DNA of 64,000 nucleotides from an uncultured Candidatus Cloacimonadota bacterium (GTDB taxonomy: Bacteria > Cloacimonadota > Cloacimonadia > Cloacimonadales > TCS61): the NCBI GenBank assembly GCA_964604155.1, contig CAZRXY010000101.1, positions 307 to 64,306 on the forward strand, written 5' to 3'. Both the position numbers and the translations under genes were made by a program. The notes under the pieces were generated by a model. It was given only the letters and a program-made list of their open reading frames with translations, was not told the DNA's origin and did not search any database. Each line of letters opens with the position of its first letter. Within the stretch, counting starts at the first letter, position 1. Positions 1,900-51,945 of this stretch are shown in pieces.

Positions 1900-1912
1900 G
1901 GCAGGGGGAAAA

Positions 1913-5833: not shown

Positions 5834-5852
5834 TATGTTTCTGTTATCCAAG

Positions 5853-5882: not shown

Positions 5883-5959
5883 ATTATATTCTCTCGTCTT
5901 TGAGCCAGCAGGGCTCATATGAGTATCTTTTGAAAACACACTCTATGAAAATTGAGCAA

Positions 5960-7066: not shown

Positions 7067-7113
7067 TTTCTCTTCACTCTCTTTCTTGCCGAAATAATTC
7101 AGATAGCAAAAAC

Positions 7114-13952: not shown

Positions 13953-14276
13953 AGAAGGCAGAATTGGGGTTATCAAGATAATCGGCAGGCTTGATGCCTC
14001 AAATGCGCGTGAATTGAAGGATAATTTTGTGAAATATCTTGAAGAGACTATATATTTCATCATGGATTTCTCGGAATTAGAATTCATAGACAGTACTGGT
14101 CTGGGTGCCGTAATCAGTGCATTCAAGCATGCTTCCGAAGTTGATGGAGATGTATATATAGCAAATCTTCAGCCTAAATAAGAATGGTGTTTGATATCAC
14201 TCGCGCATATCGGATTTTTGATGTGTATGAGGACGTTGATACAGCTTTGGAGGCGATGCAGGATAACAAGAAATAG
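13933..14276 (+). pseudogene. STAS-domain anti-sigma-factor antagonist (SpoIIAA/RsbV-like) interrupted by a 1-nt frameshift
   Basis: Frame 1 gives 82 aa with IDSTGLGAVISAF and ends ..ANLQPK-TAA at 14179-14181. Frame 3 continues from 14178 as IRMVFDITRAYRIFDVYEDVDTALEAMQDNKK-TAG (stop 14274-14276), the expected STAS C-terminus. One extra A in cctAAAtaag would restore a ~113-aa protein. Confidence 0.7.
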
Positions 14277-17756: not shown

Positions 17757-17760
17757 TTCA

Positions 17761-18813: not shown

Positions 18814-18836
18814 TTCGTTTATTGGTATGCCCGAGA

Positions 18837-20225
18837 ATGAAATATTTTATCTTCTTTCTTGCCCTGTTTATTGGCGTACCAATTGGCACGATATTAGTCC
18901 GCTCAAACAAAAGAGCAGAAAAGTTAGTTTATTTTCTCTATCTGTTTCTCACTACAGAGGAGATAACGGTAAATTTTATTTCCCGAGAGTTCTACCGTGG
19001 CACTTCAAGAGGATTCGAAGTAGGAATAGTTGATTTAATCGGGATCATATTATACAGTCTCATACTATTTCGGGCAAAAAAAAATCCGCCCCGCCATGTG
19101 CCTCCCGGAGCTCCTATCTATTTTATCCTTTTTGCCTTTTGTCTTATATCTATTACAAATTCTGCCCCAGGTTATGTGATCCATTCTTTTTTTGAAATAT
19201 GGAAGATGGTGAGGATGTATATCTATTTCTGGGTTAATTATAATAATATAATCACCTATGCCCATTATGATTCTATCATATACAGCATAAGAGCGATAAT
19301 CATTTATATCAGCTATCATGTGATCCGGCAAAAATATTTTTTTGGGATTTGGCAGGCCAGAGGACCTTTTCCTCACCAGAATTCTTTAGTGATGTATATG
19401 ATTGTTTTTAATTCCATGGTACTTTCCTATATCTTGAATAAAAAAAAGAAAATCCAATTGTTCTGGTGGGTCATCACGTTCTCCCTCGGCAGCCTCTGTA
19501 TCGTTTCCACCTTTTCCCGAGCAGGTATTGTCTGCTTTGTCCTTTCCTGCATGGTGATTGTGATGCTTTCTTTTGCCGGCGGGGTGAGTCCACGCAAAAT
19601 CGGAGTTACTATTTTAATCATGTTCATAGGGTTACTGGGGGCAGTTCGATCAATGGATTCTATTGTTCTTCGTTTTGAAACAGCCCCTGAAGCGTCTTCC
19701 AATGTGAGAAAAATGCTCGCAGTGGCTGCGGTTAAAATGGCTAATGACAGAACTTTTGGTATTGGCTTGAATAATTTTGGCTTGAAAATCAATCCGCCTT
19801 ATAATTACTCCAGTCATATTGAAGGAGTAACAGACGAGACCAGAGGCGGGCTGGTGGAGACCATATACTTGAGTTTTGCCGCCGAAACCGGCTGGCACAA
19901 CATGGTGGTATATCTAATTCTCATTTTTTATTTCTTTTTTAAGAATATGAATAATTTTGTAAAACATCGAAGGTCAGACTATATTTGGGTGCCCATCGGT
20001 CTGGCTGGAGGTCTTATGGGTATCTATCTGGAATCCGCCCTGGAATGGGTGTTGAAGCAGTCAAATAATTTCTATCAGCTTATGCTTTGCTTTGCAATTA
20101 TCGCCAGTATGGACAGGATGTATAAAAATAAGCAGAGATTAAAATGGCTGCAGTGGAAAAAGAAATTAAAAGCTTTCAGGAAAATTGAAAGGGAGAAGGG
20201 CAAAATCACTGTCCACCACTATTAA
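18837..20225 (+). CDS. O-antigen polymerase/ligase-family (Wzy-like) polytopic membrane protein
   Basis: About 10 hydrophobic helices. Wzy_C-like STFSRAGIVCFVLSCMVIVML followed by a large loop. In-frame ATG at 18837 (MKYFIFFLALF) preferred over the TTG at 18822. Confidence 0.65.
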   Translation: MKYFIFFLALFIGVPIGTILVRSNKRAEKLVYFLYLFLTTEEITVNFISREFYRGTSRGFEVGIVDLIGIILYSLILFRAKKNPPRHVPPGAPIYFILFAFCLISITNSAPGYVIHSFFEIWKMVRMYIYFWVNYNNIITYAHYDSIIYSIRAIIIYISYHVIRQKYFFGIWQARGPFPHQNSLVMYMIVFNSMVLSYILNKKKKIQLFWWVITFSLGSLCIVSTFSRAGIVCFVLSCMVIVMLSFAGGVSPRKIGVTILIMFIGLLGAVRSMDSIVLRFETAPEASSNVRKMLAVAAVKMANDRTFGIGLNNFGLKINPPYNYSSHIEGVTDETRGGLVETIYLSFAAETGWHNMVVYLILIFYFFFKNMNNFVKHRRSDYIWVPIGLAGGLMGIYLESALEWVLKQSNNFYQLMLCFAIIASMDRMYKNKQRLKWLQWKKKLKAFRKIEREKGKITVHHY

Positions 20226-21409: not shown

Positions 21410-22586
21410 ATTTATCAGATATATTATATCCCGGCCATCAAATTGCTTTGAGATTATATTCTGGAATTGCAAAATTATCCTATTGAAGTTACAAAGAAAA
21501 AAGATTATAGTCTTCAATATCCAGACTGATTATTTCTATAATATCTTTGAACCCGTATATCTGGCTCTATTACAAAATCCAAAAATCCAGGTATTCTTTG
21601 CAGTCCTGGATAGAGATATATCCCTGAAAAAATTCCTGCGGGATTTTTTGCCCCCAAACCGAATTATTCCAAGTACTCTTTCCCCTTTCATATGTTTTGA
21701 TCTTTTTATCACTGCAGATATCAATGGTCCCGATTTGCCTTCGTCCATATTCCATACTCCCAAGATTCAGATGTATCATGGAGTTGGCGTTTATCCTCTT
21801 TACCACAAAAAGAAAATCCTCTCTCATTTCAATATCCATTTCGCAATAGGTCCACAATTTGTGGAATTTGTCAAAACTCTGCCACATAATAAAAAAAATC
21901 AAAATAATTGCGAACTGATTGGCTATCCAAAACTGGATGCCCTTTTTGAACCCAGTGATGAGCACACTAAAAAACTCAGGAAATTGTATGATATTGGTAA
22001 TAATTTCGTGATTCTTTACACCCCGCATTGGAATCCTTATGGTTCTCTACATCTGCTTAAACTTGATATGTTAGAGGAACTGGCAAAATTAGAAAATGTG
22101 AAAATCCTTATCAAAGTCCATCATTTTCTCTTTACAAAGTACGAAGATGAAAAATGGGAAACCAAGCTGCAGGATATTGCCGCAAAACACGAGAACGTCA
22201 TCTATGTTACCAGGCCAAACACCCAGGAGATATTTCCGCTGGGAGACATGCTGATCACTGATACCGGCACTACCGCAGCTTTTGAATTTTCCGTCACAAA
22301 AAAACCGGTCTTTGTGTTTTATAACCAGGAATGGTTTGAGAATAACCAAAATACAGAAGTGGAAAGAACCATCACCCAAACTGCCATAAATTTCACTACA
22401 ACAGATGAAATCCTCGATTATGTGATAAAACTTATGAATAATGACAGTGAATTCGGTAAAGAAATCTCTCTTCAGAAGGAAAAACAGGAGCAGATGATAA
22501 AAAAATTTCTCTATAATCCAGGATGTGCTACGATTGCTGCTCTCGATGTCATAAAAAAAATACTCAGGATTTATGATGGAAGATAA
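21399..22586 (+). CDS. TagB/TagF-family phosphotransferase-like enzyme (copy 2, tandem paralog)
   Basis: Collinear with copy 1 over its full length: MKNRF.., NIQxDYFYN, FITAxINGPD, KIQxYHGxGV, YxPHWNPxGSLH, ILIKVH, YVTRPNTQEIFPLGDxLITD. The start overlaps the copy-1 stop by 11 nt. Confidence 0.6.
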   Translation: MKNRFIRYIISRPSNCFEIIFWNCKIILLKLQRKKIIVFNIQTDYFYNIFEPVYLALLQNPKIQVFFAVLDRDISLKKFLRDFLPPNRIIPSTLSPFICFDLFITADINGPDLPSSIFHTPKIQMYHGVGVYPLYHKKKILSHFNIHFAIGPQFVEFVKTLPHNKKNQNNCELIGYPKLDALFEPSDEHTKKLRKLYDIGNNFVILYTPHWNPYGSLHLLKLDMLEELAKLENVKILIKVHHFLFTKYEDEKWETKLQDIAAKHENVIYVTRPNTQEIFPLGDMLITDTGTTAAFEFSVTKKPVFVFYNQEWFENNQNTEVERTITQTAINFTTTDEILDYVIKLMNNDSEFGKEISLQKEKQEQMIKKFLYNPGCATIAALDVIKKILRIYDGR

Positions 22587-24138
22587 TATTAAAAAGCTCA
22601 TTTTCTGGAATACTTCAGCAAATTATGCGCTAACTATCACGCGATTCTTCACTCAGATCATTCTTACCCGTATCCTCTTTCTCAATCTTGGCGAGCTTTC
22701 TTATGGCTTCTGGGCTCTTATCTGGTCTATCTTCGGATATAGCCTCCTGCTCGATTTCGGCTTTGGCACCTCTGTCCAAAAATACTCGGCTGAAGTGACT
22801 GTAACAAGTGATTATGAGAAATATAATCGTCAAGTATCCACCGTGATAACTTCCTATGCCATTATGTCCTTTGTTATTATCTCTGCCACGCTCATCATGG
22901 CGCAATTTATTTCAAAATTGTTTATCTTCCCCGAAGGTACGGATATAGTTTATTATCAAAGGGTTTTTATCTTTTTTGGCATCGGTTCTGCTCTCACTTT
23001 CCCTACAGGCGCCTTCACGGAAATTCTGCGAGGCATTAATAGGATCTATCTTCGCAACCTGATTAGTTTTATCGTCCTCTGGCTTAATTTTGCCGGTATC
23101 CTTATCATTTTCCACTTCGGTTACGGGCTACTGGAACTGGCTATTTTTTCTGTCATTATCAATCTTATTAAAAACCTTTCCATGGCTGCCACCTGTTTTA
23201 AGTTTCTGCCTAAGTTAAGAATTCTGCCTAAATTCTTTCAGCTCGGGATGCTCAGAGAAGTCGTTAGCTTCAGTATATTTGCCTATCTGATTATGTTTGC
23301 CAATATCATTATCTTCAAAACGGATCAGATCGTTCTCGGTGTAATGCTCGGTATCACAGCAGTTTCTATATATCAAGTCTCATCTCGTGCTGCTAACCTG
23401 CTGCTCCAATTCACTCACCAATTCCAGGAAACTCTCACCCCAGTTGCCGCTGCTCTGCATAAAGATGGCCAGCATGGCAGGCTGCGCCGCATCTTATTTA
23501 ATTCAAACCGCATTATTGCCATCGCTTCCACACTCCTCTTCATAATTCTCACTGCTCTCATAAAACCCGTACTCCTTATCTGGCTCGATATAGACCCCTC
23601 AAACCCAAAATTCGCTGATTCTTATAACGATATTATCCACATTGCCTATATTATGAATGTTTCTATCTATCTCTTACTGGTTTTCCGCAGCGGCTCTTCC
23701 AAGGTGCTGCTGATGACGGGCTCTCACAAATTCCTCTCCTATGTAGCCATCGCAGAGAGCATTATGAATATTGGATTTTCGGTTTTATTTATTAAATTGA
23801 TCGGGGTGGTCGGTGTTGCCATTGGGACGCTTATCCCTAATGTTATCCTCGGACTATTTGTTATATTCCCCAAAGCTGCTCGTTATAGCCAGGTTTCCAT
23901 TGCAAAAACAATCTTCAAAATCTATCTCCCGCTTGCTTTAGTATGCCTGCCTCCGCTTATATTTGTAAGCTATATTAATTTCAAAATTCCACTTTTAGAA
24001 TGGCACTTCTTTACCCTGGTCTGGGTTTCAGCTCTCATCACGCTGCTATATCTTATCTCTGCCTGGTTCCTCATGCTTTCTGCCGGAGAACGGGATAAAA
24101 CTATTCAATTCATCCGTAAATTTCTTCCCGCCAGATGA
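22573..24138 (+). CDS. Wzx-type polysaccharide flippase (MOP superfamily)
   Basis: 521 aa with ~12-14 TM helices, located in a polysaccharide locus. The N-terminus ANYALTITRFFTQIILTRIL is typical of polysaccharide biosynthesis (PST) proteins. Confidence 0.7.
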   Translation: MMEDNIKKLIFWNTSANYALTITRFFTQIILTRILFLNLGELSYGFWALIWSIFGYSLLLDFGFGTSVQKYSAEVTVTSDYEKYNRQVSTVITSYAIMSFVIISATLIMAQFISKLFIFPEGTDIVYYQRVFIFFGIGSALTFPTGAFTEILRGINRIYLRNLISFIVLWLNFAGILIIFHFGYGLLELAIFSVIINLIKNLSMAATCFKFLPKLRILPKFFQLGMLREVVSFSIFAYLIMFANIIIFKTDQIVLGVMLGITAVSIYQVSSRAANLLLQFTHQFQETLTPVAAALHKDGQHGRLRRILFNSNRIIAIASTLLFIILTALIKPVLLIWLDIDPSNPKFADSYNDIIHIAYIMNVSIYLLLVFRSGSSKVLLMTGSHKFLSYVAIAESIMNIGFSVLFIKLIGVVGVAIGTLIPNVILGLFVIFPKAARYSQVSIAKTIFKIYLPLALVCLPPLIFVSYINFKIPLLEWHFFTLVWVSALITLLYLISAWFLMLSAGERDKTIQFIRKFLPAR

Positions 24139-33556: not shown

Positions 33557-33746
33557 AAGATTCCCCTTTTATTTTTAGAGAAGACTTTCCCTACTTATAC
33601 GAGATAAAGTCAATTAAAATTATCTGTGGGTCTCAGAATTGTGAGGAGGCATTTGCAATTTTGTATATTCAATAAATTGCTTTACATAAATTGAATAGAA
33701 TTATGAATAGGTATCAGTGGTAATTCCAGATAGCCGGAGGTAGAAT

Positions 33747-35327
33747 TTGGAAAAAGTAGGTATCTCAATTTTATATGTCGAGGATGAGGACTATATTCGC
33801 AGTAATATGGTGAGGAGTTTGGAGCGAAGAGTGAAGAAGATATATTCTGCAGCGAATGGTTTGGAGGGTTTGGAATCTTTTAAGCGATATGAGCCGGATT
33901 TAGTGATCACAGACATCAAGATGCCGGTATTAAATGGTTTAGAGATGATCAAGAAGATTCGCAAGCTCAAGGAAGATACCAAATTTATCATGCTCTCTGC
34001 TCATAGCGACACGTCATCACTACTGGAGGCGATCGAGATAGGAGTACAGGGTTACATTTTAAAACCATTCCAGACGCAGAAGCTATTTAAGCTGATCGAG
34101 GAGCAGGCAGATATAATAATCTTAGACAAAAAGGTGATTGAGCAATCGAAAAAGATCAATGAGCTTTATAATGCTTTGATCATAGATTTAGAGACGGCAG
34201 GTAGTGTTCAATCTTACCTTTTGCCTGATTATCTGATCGTGGAGCGGGATTTATTTTTTTCATCCACCTATGTGCCCTCTTCCAAGATAGGTGGTGATTT
34301 GTATGACATAATCAAGATATCTGAGACAGAATATATCAGTTATATAGGTGATATATCTGGCCATGGCGTGAAGGCAGCTTTATTAATGACGGCAGTGAAG
34401 ACAACGATCACGCGGATAATAGAGGATGAGAAGCTTCACGAGCCGCATCTGATATTAAACAGGCTAAGCACAATTCTCACGCGGGAATTATTCAGCAGTG
34501 ATTATATGACAATGCTTTTATGCTATATAAATTGTGAAAAGAATTACATAAAGATATTAAATGCGGGGCATCCACCTCTGATACTGTATCACAATAAGAA
34601 AAAGACAATCACAACGCTGGTTCAGGAGGGCTCCATCCCAATTGGCTGGGTGCCTAATTATCTATATACTCCAGATGAAGAATTAAAGATGCGTTTTGAC
34701 AGCAATCAGACCTTGCTCTTATACACAGACGGTCTATTCGAATGTGAAAACGCGCCGGGAGAGGAACTGGGATTGCATGGATTGAAGGAATTTATCGAAG
34801 AAACCACCAATAATTACCCCTTGGTCTTATTACCTGTCATGATCCGTGACACGTTGAAGAAGAATAATTATGATATCAGCGGAGATGATTTTACTTTAGT
34901 GGCATTGCGCCGGATACCGGAGCAGCGAAAAGCAAGAGAAGCAGACTGTTTTTCCGGAGATCTCAAATCTGAATCATCCTTAATATTGCAGCGTCTTTTG
35001 GCATACGTGGAGCAAGAAATTGATGATGAAGCTTTCCGTAAAGAAATCTCCAGCTTAAATACAGGCTGGCTCAAGGATCTGATGGATTTGGAAATTTATC
35101 TGCCGGAAAAGGAAGTGCGTTATCTGGCAGAAATAAAAAAACCGAGTAAGAATAGTGTGATAGTATCAATCTGGATAAAAACCATAAATTTAGCGAAAGG
35201 TACAAGATTGGTGCTTAAAGAGCAGGAAAGTAGTTTGCCTTCTTTAGAAAATATCACGCTGGATATCCAATATACATCTTACGATGGATTTGTGGAGATA
35301 CAGCTTAATTTCGCCGGCAATAAATAG
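33747..35327 (+). CDS. Response-regulator receiver + PP2C/SpoIIE-type serine phosphatase (RsbU/RsbY-like) + unassigned ~130-aa C-terminal domain
   Basis: TTG start preceded by ggagg. REC: ILYVEDED..DLVITDIKMPVLNG..MLSAH. PP2C: IGGDLYDII, GDISGHGVKAALLMT, LLLYTDGLFE and GDDFTLVALRR. The last ~130 aa show no motif I recognise. Confidence 0.85.
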   Translation: MEKVGISILYVEDEDYIRSNMVRSLERRVKKIYSAANGLEGLESFKRYEPDLVITDIKMPVLNGLEMIKKIRKLKEDTKFIMLSAHSDTSSLLEAIEIGVQGYILKPFQTQKLFKLIEEQADIIILDKKVIEQSKKINELYNALIIDLETAGSVQSYLLPDYLIVERDLFFSSTYVPSSKIGGDLYDIIKISETEYISYIGDISGHGVKAALLMTAVKTTITRIIEDEKLHEPHLILNRLSTILTRELFSSDYMTMLLCYINCEKNYIKILNAGHPPLILYHNKKKTITTLVQEGSIPIGWVPNYLYTPDEELKMRFDSNQTLLLYTDGLFECENAPGEELGLHGLKEFIEETTNNYPLVLLPVMIRDTLKKNNYDISGDDFTLVALRRIPEQRKAREADCFSGDLKSESSLILQRLLAYVEQEIDDEAFRKEISSLNTGWLKDLMDLEIYLPEKEVRYLAEIKKPSKNSVIVSIWIKTINLAKGTRLVLKEQESSLPSLENITLDIQYTSYDGFVEIQLNFAGNK

Positions 35328-35339
35328 TATGGGGTTTAT

Positions 35340-35678
35340 ATGGAAATAGGGCAAAGCTTCATAGATGATGTGATGGTGATCAATATATTCGGTGAATTAT
35401 ACAGTGACCAGGCAGGTTCTTTGGAATACAGCCTGATCGACCTGATAAAGCAGAAAGATAAAGCCGTATTGAATTTAGAGGGACTGGAATACATAGACAG
35501 TTCCGGTTTGGGAGTATTGATCAAGATTTTGGATCAGATGAAAGAGCGTGGGGGAAAATTACTGATCTGCTGCGCCAGCGGGAAAGTGATGAAAGTATTT
35601 GAAATCACCAAATTTGAAAAATTCGCGACAATTTATGAAAGTCTGGACGAAGCATTAGAAGTACTAAGGGAAAAGTGA
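35340..35678 (+). CDS. STAS-domain anti-sigma-factor antagonist (RsbV/SpoIIAA-like)
   Basis: 112 aa. LNLEGLEYIDSSGLGVLIKIL contains the conserved phosphorylatable Ser context DSSGLG. C-terminal FEITKFEKFATIYESLDEAL. Confidence 0.85.
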   Translation: MEIGQSFIDDVMVINIFGELYSDQAGSLEYSLIDLIKQKDKAVLNLEGLEYIDSSGLGVLIKILDQMKERGGKLLICCASGKVMKVFEITKFEKFATIYESLDEALEVLREK

Positions 35679-36856
35679 TGCCAGAAAATTCTGATAAAGA
35701 CAGCGAAATACTATTTGCTCCGGAAGAGGAAAACATTGCCGGACTGGAAGATATGGAGGCTCAGGCAACGGGTAAAAAGTATGTGGTACGTACATCGGCA
35801 GAGCCTTCATTATGGAAGATACTGGTTGTGGATGACGAAGAGGACGTGCATACGATCACCAGGATGCTGTTTGAGGATGTGAAATATCAAAATAAGCCGG
35901 TGGAGATTCTGGATGCCTATAGTGGGGCTGAAGCCCGGAAAATATTAGCAGAAGATTCGGAAATAGCACTTGTTTTTCTGGATGTGGTGATGGAGAGTAG
36001 TAAAGCAGGCTTGGAAGTAGTGCGTTATCTGCGTGAAACACTGGGTAATAAAGCCACGCGTCTGATATTGCGTACGGGGCAGCCGGGGGAGGCACCCGAG
36101 AGCAGAATAATAATGGCATATGAGATCGATGACTACAAATTAAAAACCGAGCTTACGGCACAGAAGATGCTGACGAGTTTGATAGGGGGGTTGCGGTCAT
36201 ATGCAGCACTTCGCAATTTGGAATACGAAAACCAGCTTCGCAGAGAGGTGGAATATGAGCTAAAGACCGCCTATGAAACTCTGGACAAGGTATTTGAGCA
36301 GACAGTGAGCAGTCTATCTTCCACAATAGAATTACGCGATGCCTATACGGCGGGTCATGCCCGGCATGTGGGTAAACTGGCGCAGGAGATTGCTCGGCGG
36401 ATGGGTCTTAGTGAAGAGATTTGTAAGATGCTAAAGCTGGCAGGCTATCTGCATGATATTGGCAAGATAAAGATACCCTTGGAATTATTGAGCAAAGAGG
36501 GAGGACTATTAGAAGAAGACTGGGAAATGATCAAGCAGCATCCGGTAACCGGGTATGAATTATTGCAGCCAATAGATTTTCCCTGGCCCCTGGCAAGAGT
36601 AGTGCTTGAGCATCACGAAAGATATAACGGGAAGGGCTATCCTGGTGGTAAACAACATGCGGAATTGCTATTGGAATCTCAGATTTTGGCAGTGGCAGAT
36701 GTGGTAGAATCTATGATGCTGGCACGTCCCTATCGAATAGCATTAGGTAAGAAACTGGCTCGAGAGGAAATCCGGAAAAATATGGGTGTGTTGTATCACC
36801 CTGAGGTGGCAAAAATTTGCCTGGAGATTGTAAATGAGAATTATGAATTTGAGTAA
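35675..36856 (+). CDS. Response-regulator receiver + HD-GYP domain protein (c-di-GMP phosphodiesterase, RpfG-like)
   Basis: The start GTGATG overlaps the STAS stop TGA. REC: KILVVDDEED..LVFLDVVM. HD-GYP: GHARHV, YLHDIGKIKIP and HHERYNGKGYPGG. Confidence 0.85.
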   Translation: MMPENSDKDSEILFAPEEENIAGLEDMEAQATGKKYVVRTSAEPSLWKILVVDDEEDVHTITRMLFEDVKYQNKPVEILDAYSGAEARKILAEDSEIALVFLDVVMESSKAGLEVVRYLRETLGNKATRLILRTGQPGEAPESRIIMAYEIDDYKLKTELTAQKMLTSLIGGLRSYAALRNLEYENQLRREVEYELKTAYETLDKVFEQTVSSLSSTIELRDAYTAGHARHVGKLAQEIARRMGLSEEICKMLKLAGYLHDIGKIKIPLELLSKEGGLLEEDWEMIKQHPVTGYELLQPIDFPWPLARVVLEHHERYNGKGYPGGKQHAELLLESQILAVADVVESMMLARPYRIALGKKLAREEIRKNMGVLYHPEVAKICLEIVNENYEFE

Positions 36857-37397
36857 GAAAAAAAAATCGTTGATACTCGCAGTATCATTATCTGTATTGC
36901 TGTTATTAACAGGTTGCTCTGCCCTGCTTTATTACCGCTGGAAAAGTTTTGAAATTGAGGATTTGGGAATAGAGCTGAAGGTGCCATCTGAGCCGCGTCA
37001 TTTTCGCATGGCAGCAGGGACAACTCAGGGAATAGCAGAATTTGAGCAGTGGACAATTACAGATGTAAAAAGCAGTTATCAATTCTATATTGTGAGTGGG
37101 GATCATGAATATGAGGAGATAGATTTATTTATGCAGGCGGAAGTATTAAATGCGGCACCACGTCCGGCTGTAGGATTTATGGTGAAGGCAATAGAAACCG
37201 GAAGCAGGCGATTTGTGCAGGGTGAATTACTGGTTGAAGAACAAAGCTGGTTGCAGGAAGATCGAAGGAGTAGAGCCATTAGCCGAACTTATGTATTGCC
37301 CGGAAAAATTCTCCAATTGATCTGCGTGTTTCCGTCAGAAGAAACTGATCGGGCTTCAGTATCTTATTTCTTTGATTCCTTCAAGCAGAAGGATTAG
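36834..37397 (+). CDS. Hypothetical lipoprotein
   Basis: Overlaps the HD-GYP gene end by 23 nt. Lipobox LLLLTGCSAL. No family recognised. Confidence 0.5.
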   Translation: MRIMNLSKKKKSLILAVSLSVLLLLTGCSALLYYRWKSFEIEDLGIELKVPSEPRHFRMAAGTTQGIAEFEQWTITDVKSSYQFYIVSGDHEYEEIDLFMQAEVLNAAPRPAVGFMVKAIETGSRRFVQGELLVEEQSWLQEDRRSRAISRTYVLPGKILQLICVFPSEETDRASVSYFFDSFKQKD

Positions 37398-37415
37398 GTA
37401 AATAATCCGGGAAAA

Positions 37416-37820
37416 ATGATAAAAGGGTTAATTATGAATAGAACTATGTTATTTATGCTGGTAATCGGAGTATTGATTTTTGCCGGCTGCCGCGAGACAG
37501 ATGAAAATCGGGAGTACTATCTTAGAGGCTTGCGTGCAGAGCAGAATATGCAATATGAAGATGCTATCACTCATTATGCCAAGGCACTCACCTTTGATCT
37601 TCAGGATGAATTAACCTGGCATGCCAAGGGCAGGTGTCATCTGTTACTGGCGATGTCCAGTTATTTTCTATTTGAAGAAAGTGAGAATCGAAATTTGCAG
37701 ATCGAAGGTAACCTAAGCAAAGCGGGAGATTGTTTTCGCCGGGCTGAGCAATGGGGCTACACTACCTCAATAAAGACGGATACTCTGTTCATCAAGCTTC
37801 AGGAAAAGTTCAGCAATTGA
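37416..37820 (+). CDS. Small lipoprotein with TPR-like helix pairs
   Basis: Lipobox LIFAGCRE. YYLRGLRAEQNMQYEDAITHYAKALTFD resembles one TPR unit. Confidence 0.45.
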   Translation: MIKGLIMNRTMLFMLVIGVLIFAGCRETDENREYYLRGLRAEQNMQYEDAITHYAKALTFDLQDELTWHAKGRCHLLLAMSSYFLFEESENRNLQIEGNLSKAGDCFRRAEQWGYTTSIKTDTLFIKLQEKFSN

Positions 37821-37863: not shown

Positions 37864-38370
37864 ATGATTCATTTATACACGGGTAACGGCAAGGGAAAGA
37901 CCACCAGTGCAATGGGGCTTATTTTACGTGCGCTGGGGCATAAAAAGCAGGTATGCCTGATCCAGTTTATGAAAGGGGACTGGCAATATGGAGAGATACA
38001 GAGCCTTCAGAAACTGGAGGGAATTGATATCTTTAAATATGGCACAACGGAATTTGTGGATGCAAAATCCCCGGGCAAAATAGATATCAGTGAAGCAGCA
38101 GCCGGCTGGCGGAAAGCTGTGGAAGTGATCAAATCCGGGAGATATCAATTAGTGGTTCTTGATGAGATAAATGTAGCCGTGTATATGGGGCTTCTAAATT
38201 TATCGGAACAACTGGATTTAATGGGAATGGCTGCAGATTGTGAACTGGTGATGACTGGCAGATATGCGGCATTAGAAGTGATAGAACGGGCGGACCTGGT
38301 TACTGAGATGCGGCAGATAAAGCATTATTATGATAAGGGGATAACCAGTCGCGAAGGCATAGAATATTAA
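37864..38370 (+). CDS. cobO: Cob(I)yrinic acid a,c-diamide / cob(I)alamin adenosyltransferase (CobA/CobO/BtuR family)
   Basis: IHLYTGNGKGKTTSAMGLILRALGH..VCLIQFMKG, VVLDEINVA and KHYYDKGITSREGIEY are characteristic of the family. Confidence 0.85.
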   Translation: MIHLYTGNGKGKTTSAMGLILRALGHKKQVCLIQFMKGDWQYGEIQSLQKLEGIDIFKYGTTEFVDAKSPGKIDISEAAAGWRKAVEVIKSGRYQLVVLDEINVAVYMGLLNLSEQLDLMGMAADCELVMTGRYAALEVIERADLVTEMRQIKHYYDKGITSREGIEY

Positions 38371-39398
38371 TGCTCGCTCAGAGATTTATCCAGCGGCACC
38401 TGCATAATATCACACCAGTCTCACTTCTGCTGTACCCCTTTTCATTAATCTGGGGATTGATACAAAAGGTTCGCCGTACGTGGTGGCGTTATCATCCGGG
38501 TGAGAGAGCAGAAGTAAGGGTGATATCTGTGGGCAATATCACAGCGGGAGGCAGTGGGAAAACCCCATTTACAATATATCTGGCAGAATATCTACGGGCA
38601 AAAGGCAAACGGATTGCAGTTTCTCACAGGGGGTATAAAGGAGATTATGAGAATGAGGCGAGGATCATAAGCACACGGGAAGTGATTTTGCCGGAAGCTG
38701 CCAGTGCAGGAGATGAAGCCCGGCTTCTGGCAGAGAGTCTGCAGGGTATTCCGGTGTGTACCGGTAAAAAACGGGTACGGGCGATAGAGCTCTTAATGAA
38801 GTGCTATCCCGATCTGGAGATTGTTATTCTGGATGACAGCTATCAGCATTTCAAGGTGGTGCATGATATAGATATTGTGATTTTTAAATTACCAGCCCCC
38901 ATAGGCAACGGGTTTTTGCATCCTGCCGGTATTTTGCGAGAGCCGCTGTCTGCTTTGAAGGACGCAGATTTGATTATAATTAACGGCAGAGGTGAGATAC
39001 CGGATTTTTTGCACAAGTATCACGATAAAATCTGTCAGGGCGAATATGTGCTGGAAGATTTTTTTCTGAATGGCGCGGAAGTGATTAAGCTAAGCACCCT
39101 GCAATCAGCGAAAATTGGTTTGATTTCAGGCATAGCTAATCCTGCGGGACTGGAAGACACACTCAGCAGTCTGGGGTTTATCTGGGAATTTCATTGTAAA
39201 TTTCCCGATCACTACCATTATAAGCGAAAGCAGGACGTATCGGCTATAGAAAAGGAGATTGCTATCCATCAGGTAGAATATCTGGTGACTACTGAAAAGG
39301 ATTATACAAAGCTGAAAGATATGAAGATATCTATACCCGTAGCTGTGATAAAGATAAGATTTAACCTTGTTAGCGGGAGATTATCGGATATTGTGTGA
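38370..39398 (+). CDS. lpxK: Tetraacyldisaccharide 4'-kinase (lipid A biosynthesis)
   Basis: P-loop VISVGNITAGGSGKTP, SHRGYKG and ILDDSYQH. The start overlaps the cobO stop (taATG). Confidence 0.85.
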   Translation: MLAQRFIQRHLHNITPVSLLLYPFSLIWGLIQKVRRTWWRYHPGERAEVRVISVGNITAGGSGKTPFTIYLAEYLRAKGKRIAVSHRGYKGDYENEARIISTREVILPEAASAGDEARLLAESLQGIPVCTGKKRVRAIELLMKCYPDLEIVILDDSYQHFKVVHDIDIVIFKLPAPIGNGFLHPAGILREPLSALKDADLIIINGRGEIPDFLHKYHDKICQGEYVLEDFFLNGAEVIKLSTLQSAKIGLISGIANPAGLEDTLSSLGFIWEFHCKFPDHYHYKRKQDVSAIEKEIAIHQVEYLVTTEKDYTKLKDMKISIPVAVIKIRFNLVSGRLSDIV

Positions 39399-46342: not shown

Positions 46343-47350
46343 TCAGATTTCAATCAGGGTATGTTTTGTTTTATCGATGATCTCTAATATTTCTTCTTTG
46401 CTCAAGAGCAGTTCACCATTATGTTTTCTTAGTTTCAACCTTCTGATGTTGTCATCAACTTCTTCGCGGCTGATTTTCACAATTTTTTTACAGAATTTAA
46501 AATCGGAGACGATTCTGATTCTTTTCCAGTCTGCGAGCTGGATATCAATAGAAATCACGTAAGGTACATTGTTTTCCAGCAAGTATATTGCATTAAGCCT
46601 GTATAGTCCGGGATTTAGGAATGATAATTCATAGCTGTGAACTTTATGTACAATTCTGGCAGTTTTTAGACTGTCTAAATGTTTGTCGGAATCCAAATAT
46701 TTACCGACTTCCCTGAAATCCTGAGTTTCCAGTGATTGCTTTAGTTTCTCAATTAAGTACATGATATTTCGATTCAATTTTGTGCCTGGTACCTTACAGA
46801 TGATCTTAAAATTTCCGGTAAATTTTATATAAAGAATAATTTCCTGCCTGATATTATAGAGCTTTGGGATAATGCTGTCTTCGGACAGATTATAGATTTC
46901 AGCCAGATATCCTGCATCTTTTTCCTGAACATAATAATCTCTTGCCAGCTCACGATCCGATTCACAGAAAATCTCAGGAGGTATCTCACTGATGATTTTT
47001 TCCAGATTAGGGTGGTCAATCAGGTCAGGATAATTTTCTGCCTCGCTAACTGCACCGATAAGCTGCAAAAACTCGGTATCACTTTTTAACCTATCGAGCA
47101 TCTGTAGCGAAAAGTTCCGTGCTACCTGATAAACCCATTTATCTGGTTTCTCCACCCGCTCTTTCCAGAGAAATAATTTAATAGTGGTTAATTGAGCTAT
47201 CTCCTGGGCAATATGAGACTTATGGCAGAAATGCTCACCGATAGTGAGTGCCTTCTGGTAATAATGTGAATAAAAACTATCCTCAGAAAATTTATTTTGC
47301 CAAGCCTCGCTCAAAATAACTCCTTTTAATATCTCTTTTGGGATGATCAA
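46343..47350 (-). CDS. ECF-like sigma-70 family protein with ~160-aa C-terminal extension
   Basis: Region-2-like: IAQEIAQLTTIKLFLW..PDKWVYQVARNFSLQMLDRLK. Region-4-like: ISEIPPEIFCESDRELARDYYVQEKDAGYLAEIYNLSEDSIIPKLYNIRQEI. The remaining C-terminal half is unassigned. The start is uncertain: TTG at 47350, or TTG at 47314, which is preceded by aaaggag. Confidence 0.5.
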   Translation of the reverse strand: MIIPKEILKGVILSEAWQNKFSEDSFYSHYYQKALTIGEHFCHKSHIAQEIAQLTTIKLFLWKERVEKPDKWVYQVARNFSLQMLDRLKSDTEFLQLIGAVSEAENYPDLIDHPNLEKIISEIPPEIFCESDRELARDYYVQEKDAGYLAEIYNLSEDSIIPKLYNIRQEIILYIKFTGNFKIICKVPGTKLNRNIMYLIEKLKQSLETQDFREVGKYLDSDKHLDSLKTARIVHKVHSYELSFLNPGLYRLNAIYLLENNVPYVISIDIQLADWKRIRIVSDFKFCKKIVKISREEVDDNIRRLKLRKHNGELLLSKEEILEIIDKTKHTLIEI

Positions 47351-50238: not shown

Positions 50239-51945
50239 CTATTCCACGACGGTAAATTTGATCACTTCGTTGATGGAAGTGTGTCCATCTTTCATTTTTA
50301 GGATGGCACTATCATGCAAAGAAAGCATGCCATTTTCAAGAGCAGCGTCGCGGATAAGGTCTTGATTAGCACCATTAAAAATGAGATGTCTGATCTTTGG
50401 AGTAACTTCGAGCATCTCAAATATTCCGGTTCTACCTGAATAACCGGTATTATCACAATGGACGCATCCAGTACCTTTCTTGAAATTAATTTTATCAGCA
50501 TCTTCTCTGGTCATCCCGATGTCTGCAATTTCCTGATCTGTGGGCTTATAATCCGCTCCACAATGAGGACAAATCCTTCTCACCAGTCTCTGTGCCATCA
50601 CAAGATTGAGAGAACTGGCAACGAGATAGGGCGGGATGCCAATATCGATTAAACGAGTAACGGTAGAGGGAGCATCATTAGCATGCAAAGTGGTGAATAC
50701 AAGGTGTCCCGTAAGCGAGAATTTGATGGCAATATCTGCAGTCTCGTGATCACGAATCTCACCTATGAGCACAATATCAGGGTCCTGACGAAGTACAGAC
50801 CGCAGCGCTCTGCCAAAGGTGAGACCAATCTTTTCATTAGCCTCAATCTGACAGATGCCATCAAGCCTGTATTCCACGGGGTCTTCGACGGTTACGATAT
50901 TGTTCTCAATATCCATGATCTCTTTAAGGGCAGCATGTAAAGTAGTAGATTTTCCGCTACCGGTAGGACCTGAAACTATATTAATCCCATAAGGTCTTCT
51001 GATCCATTTTTTAAACATATCCAAGTTATCTGAGGTGAAGCCAAGAGTAGTGAGCGTGAAGCCAAATTCGCCTTTATCCAAAAGACGCATAACTACCTTT
51101 TCACCAACAACAGTAGGCGTGATAGACACTCGAACATCTACGCTTTTAACTGCAGTTTTAAGAGAAATATGACCATCCTGTGGCAATCTTCTTTCTGCAA
51201 TATTCAGTTTCGACATCACCTTAACAATAGATACAAGTCCCGGGTGCATATGAATGGGAGGAGACATTACTTCACGCAGAGCTCCATCTATACGGAATCT
51301 CACGCGAGTATTTTTACTCAGAGGCTCGATATGAATATCGGTGCAACCAGATTTTATGGCTTCGGTGATAATGAGATTGATCAATTTTACAACCGGTGCA
51401 TCTTCATCACCTTTTGCATCTATACTGATCTCATTTTCGTCCTCATCTACAGCAACGAATTCAAAATTACCAACGGCATCCTCAACCTGTGAAGAAGTCC
51501 TGATTGATTTATAGTACCTTTCCAGGGTATCAGTAAGCACACTGTCGCCGATTAAAAGTGGAGTGATCGGCAGATCAATGATCTTTTTTAAACTGTCCAG
51601 AATACCAATATTTTCAGGATCGGTCATTGCCACAAGAACACTCGTTTCCGTTTTCTTAATGGCAATACACCTGTTTTCCACAGCAAAGGGTTCCGGTATA
51701 ATTTTTACGACAGACACATCGAGGCCGAGGAGGTCATCCTCAGCCACCAATGCGATATCAAGCTGCTGCTGCAAAGCTTTTAGCAGGTTCTTTTCTGATA
51801 AATAACCGAGCTTTACCAAGGTCTCCCCGATCTTTAGTCTGAAATTGTTTTGCTTCACCAGCGCTTCTTTCACCTGATCTTCAGTGACGAAGCCCAAATG
51901 AACCAGGATCTCACCTAAACGGGCAAATTGGGGATTAAATGACAT
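50239..51945 (-). CDS. pilB: Type IV pilus assembly ATPase (GspE/PilB family)
   Basis: N-terminal T2SSE_N-like LGEILVHLGFVTEDQVKEAL. Walker A SGPTGSGKSTTL. Asp/His boxes. Tetracysteine CPHC..CVHC. Confidence 0.9.
   Translation of the reverse strand: MSFNPQFARLGEILVHLGFVTEDQVKEALVKQNNFRLKIGETLVKLGYLSEKNLLKALQQQLDIALVAEDDLLGLDVSVVKIIPEPFAVENRCIAIKKTETSVLVAMTDPENIGILDSLKKIIDLPITPLLIGDSVLTDTLERYYKSIRTSSQVEDAVGNFEFVAVDEDENEISIDAKGDEDAPVVKLINLIITEAIKSGCTDIHIEPLSKNTRVRFRIDGALREVMSPPIHMHPGLVSIVKVMSKLNIAERRLPQDGHISLKTAVKSVDVRVSITPTVVGEKVVMRLLDKGEFGFTLTTLGFTSDNLDMFKKWIRRPYGINIVSGPTGSGKSTTLHAALKEIMDIENNIVTVEDPVEYRLDGICQIEANEKIGLTFGRALRSVLRQDPDIVLIGEIRDHETADIAIKFSLTGHLVFTTLHANDAPSTVTRLIDIGIPPYLVASSLNLVMAQRLVRRICPHCGADYKPTDQEIADIGMTREDADKINFKKGTGCVHCDNTGYSGRTGIFEMLEVTPKIRHLIFNGANQDLIRDAALENGMLSLHDSAILKMKDGHTSINEVIKFTVVE

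What the first reader, a model, noticed from the sequence alone, without database searches (positions are those of the whole stretch)
33747..37820. Kinase-less partner-switching operon wired directly to an HD-GYP c-di-GMP phosphodiesterase
Seen: five co-directional, tightly packed genes.
- REC-PP2C phosphatase, with all SpoIIE-type motifs intact.
- STAS protein 12 nt downstream, with the DSSGLG phospho-serine context.
- REC-HD-GYP, whose GTGATG start overlaps the STAS stop, implying translational coupling.
- Two lipoproteins; the first overlaps the HD-GYP gene end.
No RsbW/SpoIIAB-type HATPase switch kinase and no sigma factor gene is adjacent.

Established: partner switching normally needs a phosphatase, a STAS protein and a kinase/anti-sigma. 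Pseudomonas SiaABCD shows that such modules can control a diguanylate cyclase instead of a sigma factor.

Inference: here the STAS protein may gate c-di-GMP degradation (the HD-GYP) rather than a sigma factor. Two receiver domains would supply inputs and the envelope lipoproteins would act as sensors or outputs. I do not know of this arrangement having been described. A complete type IV pilus operon lies 11 kb away and is a plausible c-di-GMP-responsive output.
Basis: partly seen in the sequence, partly recalled or inferred. Interest (0 to 1): 0.7.

Follow-up and report, generated by a model that had tools for sequence, protein, structure and literature searches.

The report
Partner-switch operon with dead fused kinase
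A signalling operon in an uncultured Cloacimonadota bacterium does contain the five genes described, but the "missing" switch kinase is present as a catalytically dead kinase-shaped domain fused to the phosphatase, and the neighbouring c-di-GMP-degrading enzyme looks like an optional add-on rather than the switch's essential target.

Summary
All five genes, their domains, motifs and junctions are confirmed (33747-37820, + strand). The last ~140 aa of the REC-PP2C protein match no family by sequence. Modelled with only its own orthologues, this tail folds like RsbW/SpoIIAB/UsfX anti-sigma kinases; these are the six best PDB matches. The N, G1 and G2 ATP-binding motifs are replaced or deleted. 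The tail is still under purifying selection (dN/dS about 0.25, against 0.04-0.05 for REC and PP2C).

So the protein is an HsbR/CrsR-type three-domain response regulator with a kinase-negative third domain. It is paired with an HsbA-like STAS protein whose phospho-serine is invariant.

Intact-kinase paralogues with no STAS neighbour occur in MAGs of related species. They are candidate trans-kinases.

The REC-HD-GYP gene is ancestral to this operon and translationally coupled to STAS in 8 of 11 orthologous loci. It is cleanly absent in the other 3, where the rest of the module shows the same purifying selection. STAS/HD-GYP adjacency was not found outside this clade, and no fusions were seen.

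Verdict: a new variant of a known kind. Direct STAS gating of the HD-GYP is possible (about 0.3) but cannot be the module's sole function.

The parts
33557..33746 (+). Divergent intergenic region between ispD (-) and the operon; presumed promoter region. Shine-Dalgarno GGAGG at 33736-33740.
   Evidence: Sequence read. The sigma-70 consensus scan is not above shuffles. No Rfam family was found in the whole window at gathering threshold.
33747..35327 (+). HsbR/CrsR-type three-domain response regulator, 526 aa: REC (aa 8-117; D13, D56, K106), PP2C/SpoIIE (aa 194-389; GGDLYD 182-187, GDISGHG 201-207, TDGLFE 327-332, GDDFTLV 379-385) and a kinase-negative RsbW-like C-terminal domain.
   Evidence: Pfam; invariant residues; motif coordinates; 11 orthologues at 55-66% identity.
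34902..35324 (+). C-terminal domain (aa 386-526): RsbW/SpoIIAB/UsfX-like fold without ATP-binding motifs (pseudokinase, docking or anti-sigma-like domain). The former N-box helix is at aa 437-449 (LNTGWLKDLMDLE), the former G1 at aa 473-479 (VSIWIKT), and the G2/ATP-lid segment is deleted.
   Evidence: No Pfam or HMM hit. hhalign against intact tails gives E 0.029 in a consistent register. Alignment to intact relatives. AF2 with a degenerate-only MSA gives pLDDT 74.7 and pTM 0.71. Foldseek top 6 are 8ih8 UsfX, 6m37 RsbW and 1th8/1tid SpoIIAB. dN/dS about 0.25.
35340..35678 (+). STAS anti-sigma-factor-antagonist-type protein, 112 aa; phospho-acceptor Ser54 lies in DSSGLG (nt 35496-35513).
   Evidence: Pfam STAS E 3.5e-22 and TIGR00377 77.9 bits, above its cut-off. 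The D-S-x-G-L-G serine is invariant in 11 of 11 orthologues.
35675..36856 (+). REC-HD-GYP c-di-GMP phosphodiesterase-type response regulator (392/393 aa). Features: N-terminal ILFAPE motif (aa 12-17, nt 35708-35725), REC (VVDDEED 51-57, FLDVVM 101-106), HDIGK 260-264, HHERYNGKGYP 313-323. Start overlaps the STAS stop (TGATG).
   Evidence: Pfam HD_5, HD and Response_reg. NF053512 partial match, 139.8 bits, below its cut-off of 400. Motifs invariant in 8 of 8 orthologues. LFAPE is present in 15 of 18 orthologues and 0 of 102 other HD-GYP hits. The gene is absent from 3 of 11 orthologous operons.
36834..37397 (+). Lipoprotein 1 (187 aa), lipobox LLTGC with Cys28. It overlaps the HD-GYP 3' end by 23 nt. 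Function unknown; clade-restricted.
   Evidence: No Pfam or NCBIfam hit. Conserved in 11 of 11 orthologous loci with an invariant Cys. The homologue search returned only near-identical proteins. The single-sequence AF2 model is unusable, pLDDT 44.8.
37416..37820 (+). Lipoprotein 2 (134 aa), lipobox FAGC with Cys25; a small helical protein with a faint TPR-like signal.
   Evidence: TPR_1 and TPR_2 score below their cut-offs. Conserved in 11 of 11 loci with an invariant Cys.
37864..39398 (+). cobA/btuR (37864-38370) and lpxK (38370-39398). These are co-directional housekeeping genes that are syntenic in the orthologous loci long enough to show them. They are context, possibly co-transcribed, and not claimed as part of the signalling module.
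   Evidence: Pfam and NCBIfam; synteny.

Best explanation
The locus encodes a clade-specific derivative of the HsbR/HsbA (CrsR/CrsA) type of partner switch.

**Shown**
- Gene 1 is a response regulator with REC, an intact PP2C phosphatase, and a third domain that has the RsbW/SpoIIAB/UsfX fold.
- That third domain lacks the N, G1 and G2 ATP-binding motifs, yet it is kept under purifying selection.
- Gene 2 is a STAS protein with an invariant phospho-acceptor serine.
- Gene 3, a REC-HD-GYP response regulator, is translationally coupled to gene 2 in most relatives but absent in some.

**Inferred mechanism**
1. An unlinked histidine kinase or Hpt protein phosphorylates the REC domain and so sets PP2C activity. 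This is how HptB acts on HsbR and RsfS acts on RsfR.
2. The STAS serine is phosphorylated in trans by one of the kinase-intact REC/PAS-PP2C-HATPase_c_2 paralogues. This would parallel RsbW2 acting on RsfB in Mycobacterium smegmatis.
3. The cis PP2C removes that phosphate.
4. Dephospho-STAS docks on the kinase-negative third domain, as RsfB docks on UsfX/RsbW1 and CrsA docks on CrsR domain 3. This displaces or engages a client.

**Client and role of the HD-GYP**
- The core (phosphatase, pseudokinase, STAS) stays under selection where the HD-GYP is missing. Its primary client is therefore probably encoded elsewhere. Candidates are a sigma factor or anti-sigma factor, or glycan/envelope machinery.
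- The HD-GYP regulator is best read as an accessory branch. It is co-expressed and controlled by its own REC domain, so c-di-GMP hydrolysis is tied to the same operon.
- It may additionally be a secondary binding partner of STAS (about 0.3).

**Step probabilities**
- HsbR-like protein with a pseudokinase domain: about 0.85.
- Phosphorylation of STAS by a kinase in trans: about 0.6.
- HD-GYP is not the sole or primary target: about 0.65.
For: **Architecture and third domain**
- Domain calls and catalytic residues are confirmed.
- Homologues of about 540 aa carry REC + SpoIIE + PF13581 in the same order.
- The tail aligns in register with the intact domains, but the N-box E/N, the G1 DxG and the G2 segment are replaced or deleted.
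- An AF2 model built from degenerate orthologues only (pLDDT 74.7) has UsfX-RsfB, RsbW-RsbV and SpoIIAB-SpoIIAA complexes as its six best PDB matches (E 3e-5 to 2e-3, TM 0.51-0.64).
- Tail dN/dS is 0.25, against 0.04-0.05 for REC and PP2C.

**STAS and candidate trans-kinases**
- The STAS serine is invariant in 11 of 11 orthologues.
- Kinase-intact paralogues with no STAS within 2 genes occur in the MAGs that hold orthologous operons: L026 with L002, L032 with L001, and L022 with L003.

**HD-GYP is dispensable and the link is clade-specific**
- The HD-GYP gene is absent from 3 of 11 orthologous operons, with no remnant.
- The tree places those absences as 1-2 secondary losses.
- The HD-GYP-less pair P0002/P0003 has dN/dS of 0.09, 0.04 and 0.26.
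- Outside the clade, the nearest REC-HD-GYP follows a 7TMR-DISM histidine kinase, not a STAS gene.

**Precedents**
- HsbR and CrsR domain organisation, and multi-partner HsbA (PMC6482189; bioRxiv 10.1101/2024.11.25.625174).
- Kinase-negative RsbW1, the separate kinase RsbW2, and the REC-PP2C phosphatase RsfR (PMC7693655; PMC10950880).
Against: - Sequence alone does not establish that the tail is homologous to HATPase_c_2. hhalign gives E 0.029 with probability under 2%, and a profile search of PDB sequences finds nothing. The case rests on one medium-confidence AF2 model plus alignment register and family context.
- No kinase, histidine kinase, Hpt or sigma partner has been identified for this genome. 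The whole genome could not be scanned.
- The HD-GYP-less genomes might encode the HD-GYP elsewhere.
- The rooting that makes HD-GYP ancestral rests on a neighbour-joining tree with no support values.
- Tight STAS-to-HD-GYP translational coupling, and the HD-GYP sitting in the operon position that rsbW or spoIIAB normally holds, fit a direct interaction at least as well as an accessory role.
- Synteny among these relatives also includes ispD, cobA, lpxK and polA, so conserved gene order is not informative here.
Confidence: 0.5

Rival explanations
1. The STAS protein's main job is to bind the adjacent REC-HD-GYP protein and gate it, so that the phosphatase/STAS pair controls c-di-GMP degradation directly. 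The pseudokinase domain would act only as a competing sink for STAS.
For: - The STAS stop and HD-GYP start overlap or lie at most 4 nt apart in all 8 loci that have the gene.
- The HD-GYP sits where rsbW or spoIIAB sits in canonical operons (my recollection of those operons).
- An N-terminal [IL]LFAPE motif is found only in the operon-linked HD-GYP clade: 15 of 18 orthologues and 0 of 102 other hits.
- Precedents exist: HsbA binds the cyclases HsbD and CfcR (bioRxiv 10.1101/2024.11.25.625174; PMC6482189), and SiaC binds SiaD (PMC8457831).
Against: - Three of 11 orthologous operons lack the HD-GYP gene cleanly.
- Those loci keep the STAS serine; for P0002 and P0003 the PP2C catalytic residues are also shown invariant.
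- In the HD-GYP-less pair compared (P0002/P0003), all three domains of the regulator remain under purifying selection.
- The adjacency was not seen outside the clade, and there are no STAS/HD-GYP fusions in the top 120 homologues.
- No interaction prediction could be run.
Confidence: 0.2
2. This is an anti-sigma reading. The kinase-negative C-terminal domain sequesters an unlinked sigma factor, as CrsR and HsbR domain 3 bind RpoS and as UsfX/RsbW1 bind SigF. Dephospho-STAS releases that sigma factor. The HD-GYP is only a co-transcribed second response regulator.
For: - The best structural match is UsfX in complex with its antagonist RsfB.
- RsbW1, the UsfX orthologue, is a kinase-negative anti-sigma factor (PMC7693655).
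- CrsR and HsbR third domains bind RpoS (PMC6482189).
- The core survives loss of the HD-GYP.
Against: - No group-3 sigma factor was found in the 64 kb window or in about 13 kb of extra flank.
- The only sigma-like ORF (46343-47350) is a sub-threshold ECF-like protein on the opposite strand.
- The sigma-binding surface could not be evaluated.
- The domain evolves fast (21-31% identity among orthologues), which is unusual for a surface that must hold a conserved sigma factor.
Confidence: 0.15
3. This is a SypE/SypA-like reading. The switch controls exopolysaccharide or envelope glycan production, and STAS proteins act on glycosyltransferase or export machinery rather than on transcription or c-di-GMP.
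For: - 33 of 36 kinase-intact ~540-aa family members (with a downstream gene in view) are followed directly by a same-strand GT2 or GT4 glycosyltransferase gene. The background is 95 GT-like ORFs out of 788. The set includes MAGs labelled Victivallales, UBP4 and Aminicenantes.
- A second STAS gene lies inside the window's EPS cluster at 13933-14181.
- The operon is flanked by two lipoproteins and lpxK.
- SypE/SypA in Vibrio fischeri is a known polysaccharide-controlling partner switch (my recollection; not checked in a paper here).
Against: - The window's own regulator is not followed by a glycosyltransferase gene.
- The EPS-cluster STAS is split by an apparent frameshift.
- The glycosyltransferase adjacency concerns paralogues, and many of those loci share ancestry.
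- There is no evidence for any STAS-glycosyltransferase contact.
Confidence: 0.1
4. The C-terminal tail is a decaying remnant with no function, and the five genes are neighbours only by descent.
For: - The tail has no sequence-detectable family.
- It is only 21-31% identical among orthologues.
- ispD, cobA, lpxK and polA are equally syntenic.
Against: - The reading frame is open in all 12 orthologues.
- dN/dS is 0.12-0.32 in pairs where dS is not saturated.
- Hydrophobic and aromatic core positions are invariant, and the AF2 fold is confident.
- Gene overlaps or short gaps join PP2C, STAS, HD-GYP and LIPO1.
Confidence: 0.05

Closest known systems
HsbR-HsbA (Pseudomonas aeruginosa and P. putida) and CrsR-CrsA (Shewanella oneidensis) partner switches
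   Same: - The regulator has the same three domains in the same order: REC, PP2C, then a GHKL-fold kinase/anti-sigma domain.
- It is paired with a neighbouring single-domain STAS protein that has a phospho-serine in the DSxGLG context.
- HsbA also binds c-di-GMP enzymes, including HsbD and the REC-GGDEF protein CfcR (PMC6482189; bioRxiv 10.1101/2024.11.25.625174).
   Different: - The third domain here lacks the N, G1 and G2 motifs, so it cannot be the STAS kinase.
- The linked c-di-GMP enzyme is an HD-GYP phosphodiesterase, not a cyclase.
- No Hpt gene and no flagellar context are present.
- The phylum is Cloacimonadota, whereas CrsR-CrsA homologues are described as widespread in proteobacteria (PMC6482189).
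Mycobacterial SigF partner-switching system (UsfX/RsbW1, RsbW2, RsfB, RsfR)
   Same: - RsbW-type roles are divided. There is a kinase-negative docking/anti-sigma protein (RsbW1/UsfX, the best structural match here), a separate kinase (RsbW2) and a REC-PP2C phosphatase (RsfR) acting on a STAS protein (PMC7693655; PMC10950880).
   Different: - Here the kinase-negative domain is fused to the REC-PP2C protein.
- The trans-kinase is only inferred.
- No sigF-like gene is linked.
- An HD-GYP gene follows the STAS gene.
SiaABCD (Pseudomonas aeruginosa)
   Same: A phosphatase, a kinase and a small switch protein control a c-di-GMP enzyme by direct binding (PMC8457831).
   Different: - By my recollection, SiaC is not a PF01740 STAS protein and SiaB is not an RsbW-type kinase.
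- The target there is the cyclase SiaD.
- This locus has none of those families apart from PP2C.
RpfG-family REC-(DUF3369)-HD-GYP phosphodiesterases
   Same: Gene 3 shares the REC and HD-GYP domains and all HD and GYP motifs. It is 33-58% identical over partial alignments to the hits annotated as this family by JGI.
   Different: - It lacks the DUF3369 middle domain.
- It has a clade-specific N-terminal LFAPE tail.
- It sits after a STAS gene, whereas its nearest full-length non-orthologue (P0173) sits after a histidine kinase.
Rv1364c (Mycobacterium tuberculosis), a fused RsbU-RsbW multidomain protein (PDB 3ke6)
   Same: A PP2C domain and an RsbW-like domain are fused in one chain. It was recovered as a weaker structural match (rank 40, TM 0.44).
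   Different: By my recollection, Rv1364c has a PAS sensor rather than REC and also carries its own STAS domain.

Membership tests
HsbR/CrsR-type three-domain response regulator | N-terminal receiver domain with a phospho-acceptor Asp | tested here: met
   Pfam Response_reg E 4e-27. D13, D56 and K106 are invariant.
HsbR/CrsR-type three-domain response regulator | Central PP2C/SpoIIE phosphatase domain with metal-binding aspartates | tested here: met
   Pfam SpoIIE E 4e-35. D184, D202, D328, D380 and D381 are invariant.
HsbR/CrsR-type three-domain response regulator | C-terminal GHKL/HATPase_c_2 (RsbW-like) fold | tested here: met
   Met by structure only: Foldseek top 6 are UsfX, RsbW and SpoIIAB at prob 1.0 and TM 0.51-0.64, on a model with pLDDT 74.7. 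Not detectable by sequence.
HsbR/CrsR-type three-domain response regulator | Kinase motifs (N, G1 and G2 boxes) that allow phosphorylation of the STAS partner | tested here: not met
   In alignment A1, the N-box E/N positions align to G and K, the G1 D and G align to I and T, and the G2 segment is deleted. The same holds in all close orthologues.
HsbR/CrsR-type three-domain response regulator | Adjacent STAS antagonist with a conserved phospho-serine | tested here: met
   A STAS gene lies 12 nt downstream. The D-S-x-G-L-G serine is invariant in 11 of 11 orthologues.
HsbR/CrsR-type three-domain response regulator | Third domain binds a sigma factor (RpoS) and the STAS protein | not testable with these tools
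   Needs binding assays or multimer prediction.
Canonical RsbU-RsbV-RsbW-sigma partner-switching module | Free-standing RsbW/SpoIIAB kinase/anti-sigma gene and a cognate sigma gene in the operon | tested here: not met
   The HATPase_c_2 HMM hits nothing in the window. Pfam on window ORFs and the flanks finds no sigma-70 group-3 gene.
HD-GYP c-di-GMP phosphodiesterase (RpfG family) | HD metal-binding motif and the HHExxDGxGYP signature | tested here: met
   HDIGK at aa 260-264 and HHERYNGKGYP at aa 313-323 (N in place of D; orthologues have N or D). Both are invariant in 8 of 8 orthologues. Pfam HD_5 E 7e-33.
HD-GYP c-di-GMP phosphodiesterase (RpfG family) | c-di-GMP hydrolysis activity | not testable with these tools
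   Needs an enzyme assay. By my recollection, some HD-GYP proteins are inactive or act on other nucleotides.
SiaABCD | SiaB-type kinase, SiaC-type switch protein and a GGDEF cyclase target | tested here: not met
   Pfam shows a canonical PF01740 STAS, no GGDEF domain and no additional kinase gene.
Bacterial lipoproteins (LIPO1, LIPO2) | Signal peptide followed by a lipobox L-x-x-C with invariant Cys | tested here: met
   LLTGC (Cys28) and FAGC (Cys25). Both Cys are invariant in 11 orthologues. No dedicated signal-peptide predictor was available.

The most novel reading that the evidence does not exclude
The STAS protein physically gates the REC-HD-GYP phosphodiesterase, perhaps through the clade-specific N-terminal LFAPE tail. 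The fused pseudokinase domain competes for STAS. This would be the first partner switch whose output is c-di-GMP degradation, and the first natural HsbR-type regulator with a pseudokinase acting as a phosphorylation-independent STAS sink. The MshEN-bearing PilB of the nearby type IV pilus cluster would be a downstream c-di-GMP reader.
Probability: 0.25. Interest if true: 0.65.

Novelty: new variant of a known kind. Interest (0 to 1): 0.42.

Why it matters
- **The apparent gap is explained.** A partner switch that seemed to lack its kinase is a known architecture (HsbR/CrsR) in which the kinase domain has become a conserved, non-catalytic module.
- **A natural test case.** It allows the docking or anti-sigma role of RsbW-type domains to be separated from their kinase role. 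This is the same division of labour that mycobacteria achieve with separate RsbW paralogues.
- **Extension of the STAS/c-di-GMP theme.** If the HD-GYP link is direct, STAS control of c-di-GMP enzymes would extend from cyclases (HsbD, CfcR, SiaD) to a phosphodiesterase. This would be in an uncultured phylum where signalling is essentially unstudied.
- **A lead for the wider family.** REC-PP2C-kinase paralogues are strongly associated with glycosyltransferase genes across several phyla. This points to a polysaccharide-control role that could be tested.

Tried and rejected
1. **Sequence detection of the tail.** Pfam and NCBIfam, a custom HATPase_c_2 HMM, hhalign (E 0.029, not significant) and a profile search of PDB sequences (nothing relevant) all failed. 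Only structure prediction resolved the domain.
3. **LIPO1 fold.**
   - The homologue search returned only near-identical proteins.
   - The single-sequence model was unusable, with pLDDT 44.8.
   - No inference is drawn about the lipoproteins.
4. **Metagenome scan with the HD-GYP protein.** It gave only 6 partial, non-orthologous loci with no STAS or PP2C nearby.
5. **Promoter and terminator scan.** Counts were at the shuffle level, so operon boundaries are inferred from gene spacing alone.
6. **Rfam scan of the whole window.** No riboswitch or other family reached the gathering threshold.
7. **Remnants of the HD-GYP gene in HD-GYP-less loci.** None were found by tblastn or blastn-short.
8. 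**Literature search for a STAS/HD-GYP partner switch.** None was found.
9. **Rejected: decaying-tail reading.** dN/dS and the confident fold argue against it.
10. **Rejected: conserved synteny as evidence of a functional link.** Unrelated housekeeping neighbours are just as conserved.
11. **Not attempted: STAS/HD-GYP complex prediction.** The tool returns no inter-chain confidence or coordinates and refuses chimeric sequences.

Full report
**Observation**

The five co-directional ORFs are present as described.

- **Gene 1** (33747-35327, TTG start, GGAGG 6 nt upstream) has Response_reg at aa 8-117 and SpoIIE at aa 194-389. REC D13, D56 and K106 and the PP2C metal-binding aspartates are invariant across 21 homologues.
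- **Gene 2** (35340-35678) starts 12 nt downstream. It is a canonical STAS protein (PF01740 E 3.5e-22; TIGR00377 above its cut-off) with DSSGLG at aa 53-58.
- **Gene 3** (35675/35678-36856) is REC + HD_5/HD, with HDIGK and HHERYNGKGYP. Its start overlaps the STAS stop as TGATG.
- **Genes 4 and 5.** LIPO1 (36834-37397) overlaps the gene 3 end by 23 nt, and LIPO2 (37416-37820) follows. Both have a lipobox cysteine that is invariant in 11 orthologues.
- **Flanks.** ispD lies upstream on the minus strand. cobA, lpxK and polA lie downstream.

**Source**

The closest relatives are uncultured Cloacimonadota, including "Candidatus Stygibacter frigidus".

**The overlooked domain**

- Pfam leaves aa 390-526 of gene 1 unannotated.
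- More distant homologues of about the same length (~540 aa) carry REC + SpoIIE + PF13581 (HATPase_c_2), the RsbW-type kinase domain.
- In alignment A1 the intact relatives show the N box (E...NN..HG), G1 (D.G..W) and G2 (SG.G..I). The window protein and its 11 close orthologues align in register, but the N-box Glu and Asn positions hold G and K, the G1 D and G positions hold I and T, and the G2/lid segment is deleted.
- Sequence methods cannot prove homology:
  - hhalign gives E 0.029 at very low probability.
  - A custom HMM that finds my recalled SpoIIAB and RsbW sequences at 1e-13 does not hit the tail.
  - A profile search of PDB sequences finds nothing relevant.
- I therefore predicted the tail's structure with an MSA of the degenerate orthologues only, to avoid bias from intact kinases (A2).
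  - The model has pLDDT 74.7 and pTM 0.71. Its element order is beta, three helices, two strands, a disordered loop, then two strands.
  - Its six best PDB matches are all RsbW-type anti-sigma factors solved with their STAS antagonists: UsfX-RsfB 8ih8, RsbW-RsbV 6m37, and SpoIIAB-SpoIIAA 1th8 and 1tid (E 3e-5 to 2e-3, prob 1.0, TM 0.51-0.64). The next hits are unrelated folds with TM about 0.3.
- The tail evolves fast, at 21-31% identity among orthologues against 55-66% for the whole protein. It is nevertheless under purifying selection. For the least saturated pair (P0007/P0008), dN/dS is 0.04 for REC, 0.05 for PP2C and 0.25 for the tail.
- I conclude that it is a kinase-negative RsbW-like domain kept for a non-catalytic role.

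**What this makes the system**

- REC + PP2C + a kinase/anti-sigma domain next to a STAS gene is the HsbR-HsbA / CrsR-CrsA architecture (PMC6482189; bioRxiv 10.1101/2024.11.25.625174).
- A kinase-negative RsbW homologue working with a separate kinase and a REC-PP2C phosphatase is documented in Mycobacterium smegmatis: RsbW1 (UsfX-like), RsbW2 and RsfR acting on RsfB (PMC7693655; PMC10950880).
- Here the PP2C catalytic residues and the STAS serine are invariant. A phospho-STAS substrate is therefore expected, and its kinase must act in trans.
- Candidates exist. Among 79 related genomic loci, 65 kinase-intact PP2C-HATPase_c_2 paralogues have no STAS gene within two genes. Such paralogues occur in the same MAGs as three orthologous operons: L026 with L002, L032 with L001, and L022 with L003.
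- No kinase, histidine kinase, Hpt or group-3 sigma gene lies in the 64 kb window or in the extra flank of the source contig.

**Is the HD-GYP the target?**

*Orthologous operons.*
- Eight carry the HD-GYP between STAS and LIPO1, always overlapping or within 4 nt of the STAS stop. These are the window and the loci of P0005, P0006, P0007, P0008, P0010, P0011 and P0012.
- Three lack it cleanly, with STAS followed directly by LIPO1 and LIPO2 and no remnant. These are the loci of P0002, P0003 and P0009; the P0002 arrangement is seen in two assemblies.
- A neighbour-joining tree rooted with paralogues places the HD-GYP in both the basal and crown branches. The absences are therefore 1-2 secondary losses (no support values).
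- In the HD-GYP-less pair P0002/P0003, dN/dS is 0.09, 0.04 and 0.26, and the STAS serine is kept. The core module stays functional without a cis HD-GYP.

*Outside the clade.*
- The nearest full-length REC-HD-GYP (P0173, 39% identity) follows a 7TMR-DISM histidine kinase.
- Six metagenomic relatives have no STAS or PP2C neighbour.
- None of the 120 best HD-GYP homologues is fused to STAS, PP2C or HATPase_c_2.
- Conserved order among the orthologues is uninformative, because ispD, cobA, lpxK and polA are equally conserved.

*In favour of a link.*
- The translational coupling is tight.
- The HD-GYP occupies the operon position of rsbW.
- An N-terminal [IL]LFAPE motif is present in 15 of 18 orthologues and in none of 102 other hits.
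- HsbA binds the cyclases HsbD and CfcR, and SiaC binds SiaD.

*Assessment.* I put direct STAS-HD-GYP regulation at about 0.3 as a secondary function and about 0.2 as the main one.

**Most likely mechanism (inferred)**

1. An unlinked phosphorelay sets the state of the REC domain and hence PP2C activity.
2. A paralogous kinase phosphorylates STAS Ser54, and the cis PP2C reverses this.
3. Dephospho-STAS docks on the kinase-negative third domain and exchanges it with a client encoded elsewhere.
4. The REC-HD-GYP is a co-expressed accessory branch, and possibly a second STAS partner, that couples c-di-GMP hydrolysis to the same unit.

**Wider context found along the way**

- 33 of 36 kinase-intact ~540-aa family members are directly followed by a same-strand GT2 or GT4 glycosyltransferase gene. 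The set includes MAGs labelled Victivallales, UBP4 and Aminicenantes.
- The window holds a second STAS gene inside an exopolysaccharide cluster. It is split by an apparent 1-nt deletion in an A-run.
- Together these suggest a SypE/SypA-like polysaccharide role for the family. I keep this as a lower-probability rival for the identity of the client.
- The pilus cluster is real. Its PilB carries a complete 53-residue MshEN c-di-GMP-binding module, with the same residue numbering as Vibrio cholerae MshE (PMC5013675). The pilus is therefore a plausible c-di-GMP reader, but nothing ties it to this particular HD-GYP.

**Verdict**

- This is a new variant of a known kind: an HsbR/CrsR-type partner switch with a pseudokinase third domain and an optional HD-GYP partner gene.
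- I found no paper describing a partner switch that controls an HD-GYP.

Noticed in passing
window 13933-14181 (+), continuing at 14183-14275 in another frame: A second STAS gene (DSTGLG serine present) lies inside an exopolysaccharide cluster: MBOAT 11531-12964, chain-length determinant 15726-17756, Wza 17719-18813, Wzy 18822-20225, two Glyphos_transf genes, and a flippase 22573-24138. It is split by an apparent 1-nt deletion in an A-run (cct aaa taa gaa tgg). Adding one A restores a full ~112-aa STAS protein (...LQPKIRMVFDITRAYRIFDVY...). A similarly truncated call (79 aa) appears in a Logan assembly. This could be a homopolymer error, a pseudogene or a real frameshift. The arrangement recalls SypA in the Vibrio syp locus.
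   Followed up: partly
L012, L013, L019, L028, L034, L038, L041-L046, L048, L049, L052, L054, L057, L059-L067, L069, L073-L078 (gene after the match at about 7001-8200): Kinase-intact REC-PP2C-HATPase_c_2 proteins of about 540 aa are almost always (33 of 36) followed directly by a same-strand GT2 or GT4 glycosyltransferase gene, or a fused GT2-GT4 gene. This holds across Cloacimonadota and in MAGs labelled Victivallales, UBP4 and Aminicenantes, usually with no STAS gene nearby. I did not check the literature for a prior description of this association.
   Followed up: partly
window 50239-51945 (-), PilB aa 9-61: The pilus extension ATPase carries a complete MshEN c-di-GMP-binding module. Motif 1 is RLGEILVHLGFVTEDQVKEALVKQ (R9-Q32), followed by a 5-residue spacer, then motif 2, KIGETLVKLGYLSEKNLLKALQQQ (K38-Q61). 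The residue numbers match Vibrio cholerae MshE (PMC5013675).
   Followed up: yes
window 46343-47350 (-): This 335-aa ORF has a divergent ECF-sigma-like N-terminal half (aa 24-171). TIGR02985 scores 27 bits against a cut-off of 126, and Pfam Sigma70_r2 scores 19.3 against 24. An unannotated ~165-aa C-terminal extension follows. It is the only sigma-like ORF in the window.
   Followed up: partly
window 35708-35725 (HD-GYP aa 12-17): An invariant [IL]LFAPE motif sits in an otherwise variable, acidic N-terminal tail ahead of the receiver domain. It is found only in the operon-linked HD-GYP clade and is a candidate short docking motif.
   Followed up: partly
L015, L021, L023 (proteins P0044, P0047, P0050, P0069): A second paralogous group of REC-PP2C proteins (546-571 aa) also has a C-terminal tail with no detectable kinase motifs and no STAS neighbour. 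It sits after a conserved block of six genes. The kinase domain may have degenerated more than once in this phylum.
   Followed up: no
window 28-8871: The left end of the window encodes two large Por_Secre_tail (T9SS cargo) proteins, an N6/N4 DNA methyltransferase with a RAMA domain, and a secreted Endonuclease_1-LTD-dockerin protein. These come from precomputed Pfam on an identical contig.
   Followed up: no
L092 3033-4544 (P0009): The database gene call for this HD-GYP-less orthologue (503 aa) starts inside the receiver domain and omits the acidic-pocket residues. This is either a mis-called start or an N-terminally truncated receiver.
   Followed up: no
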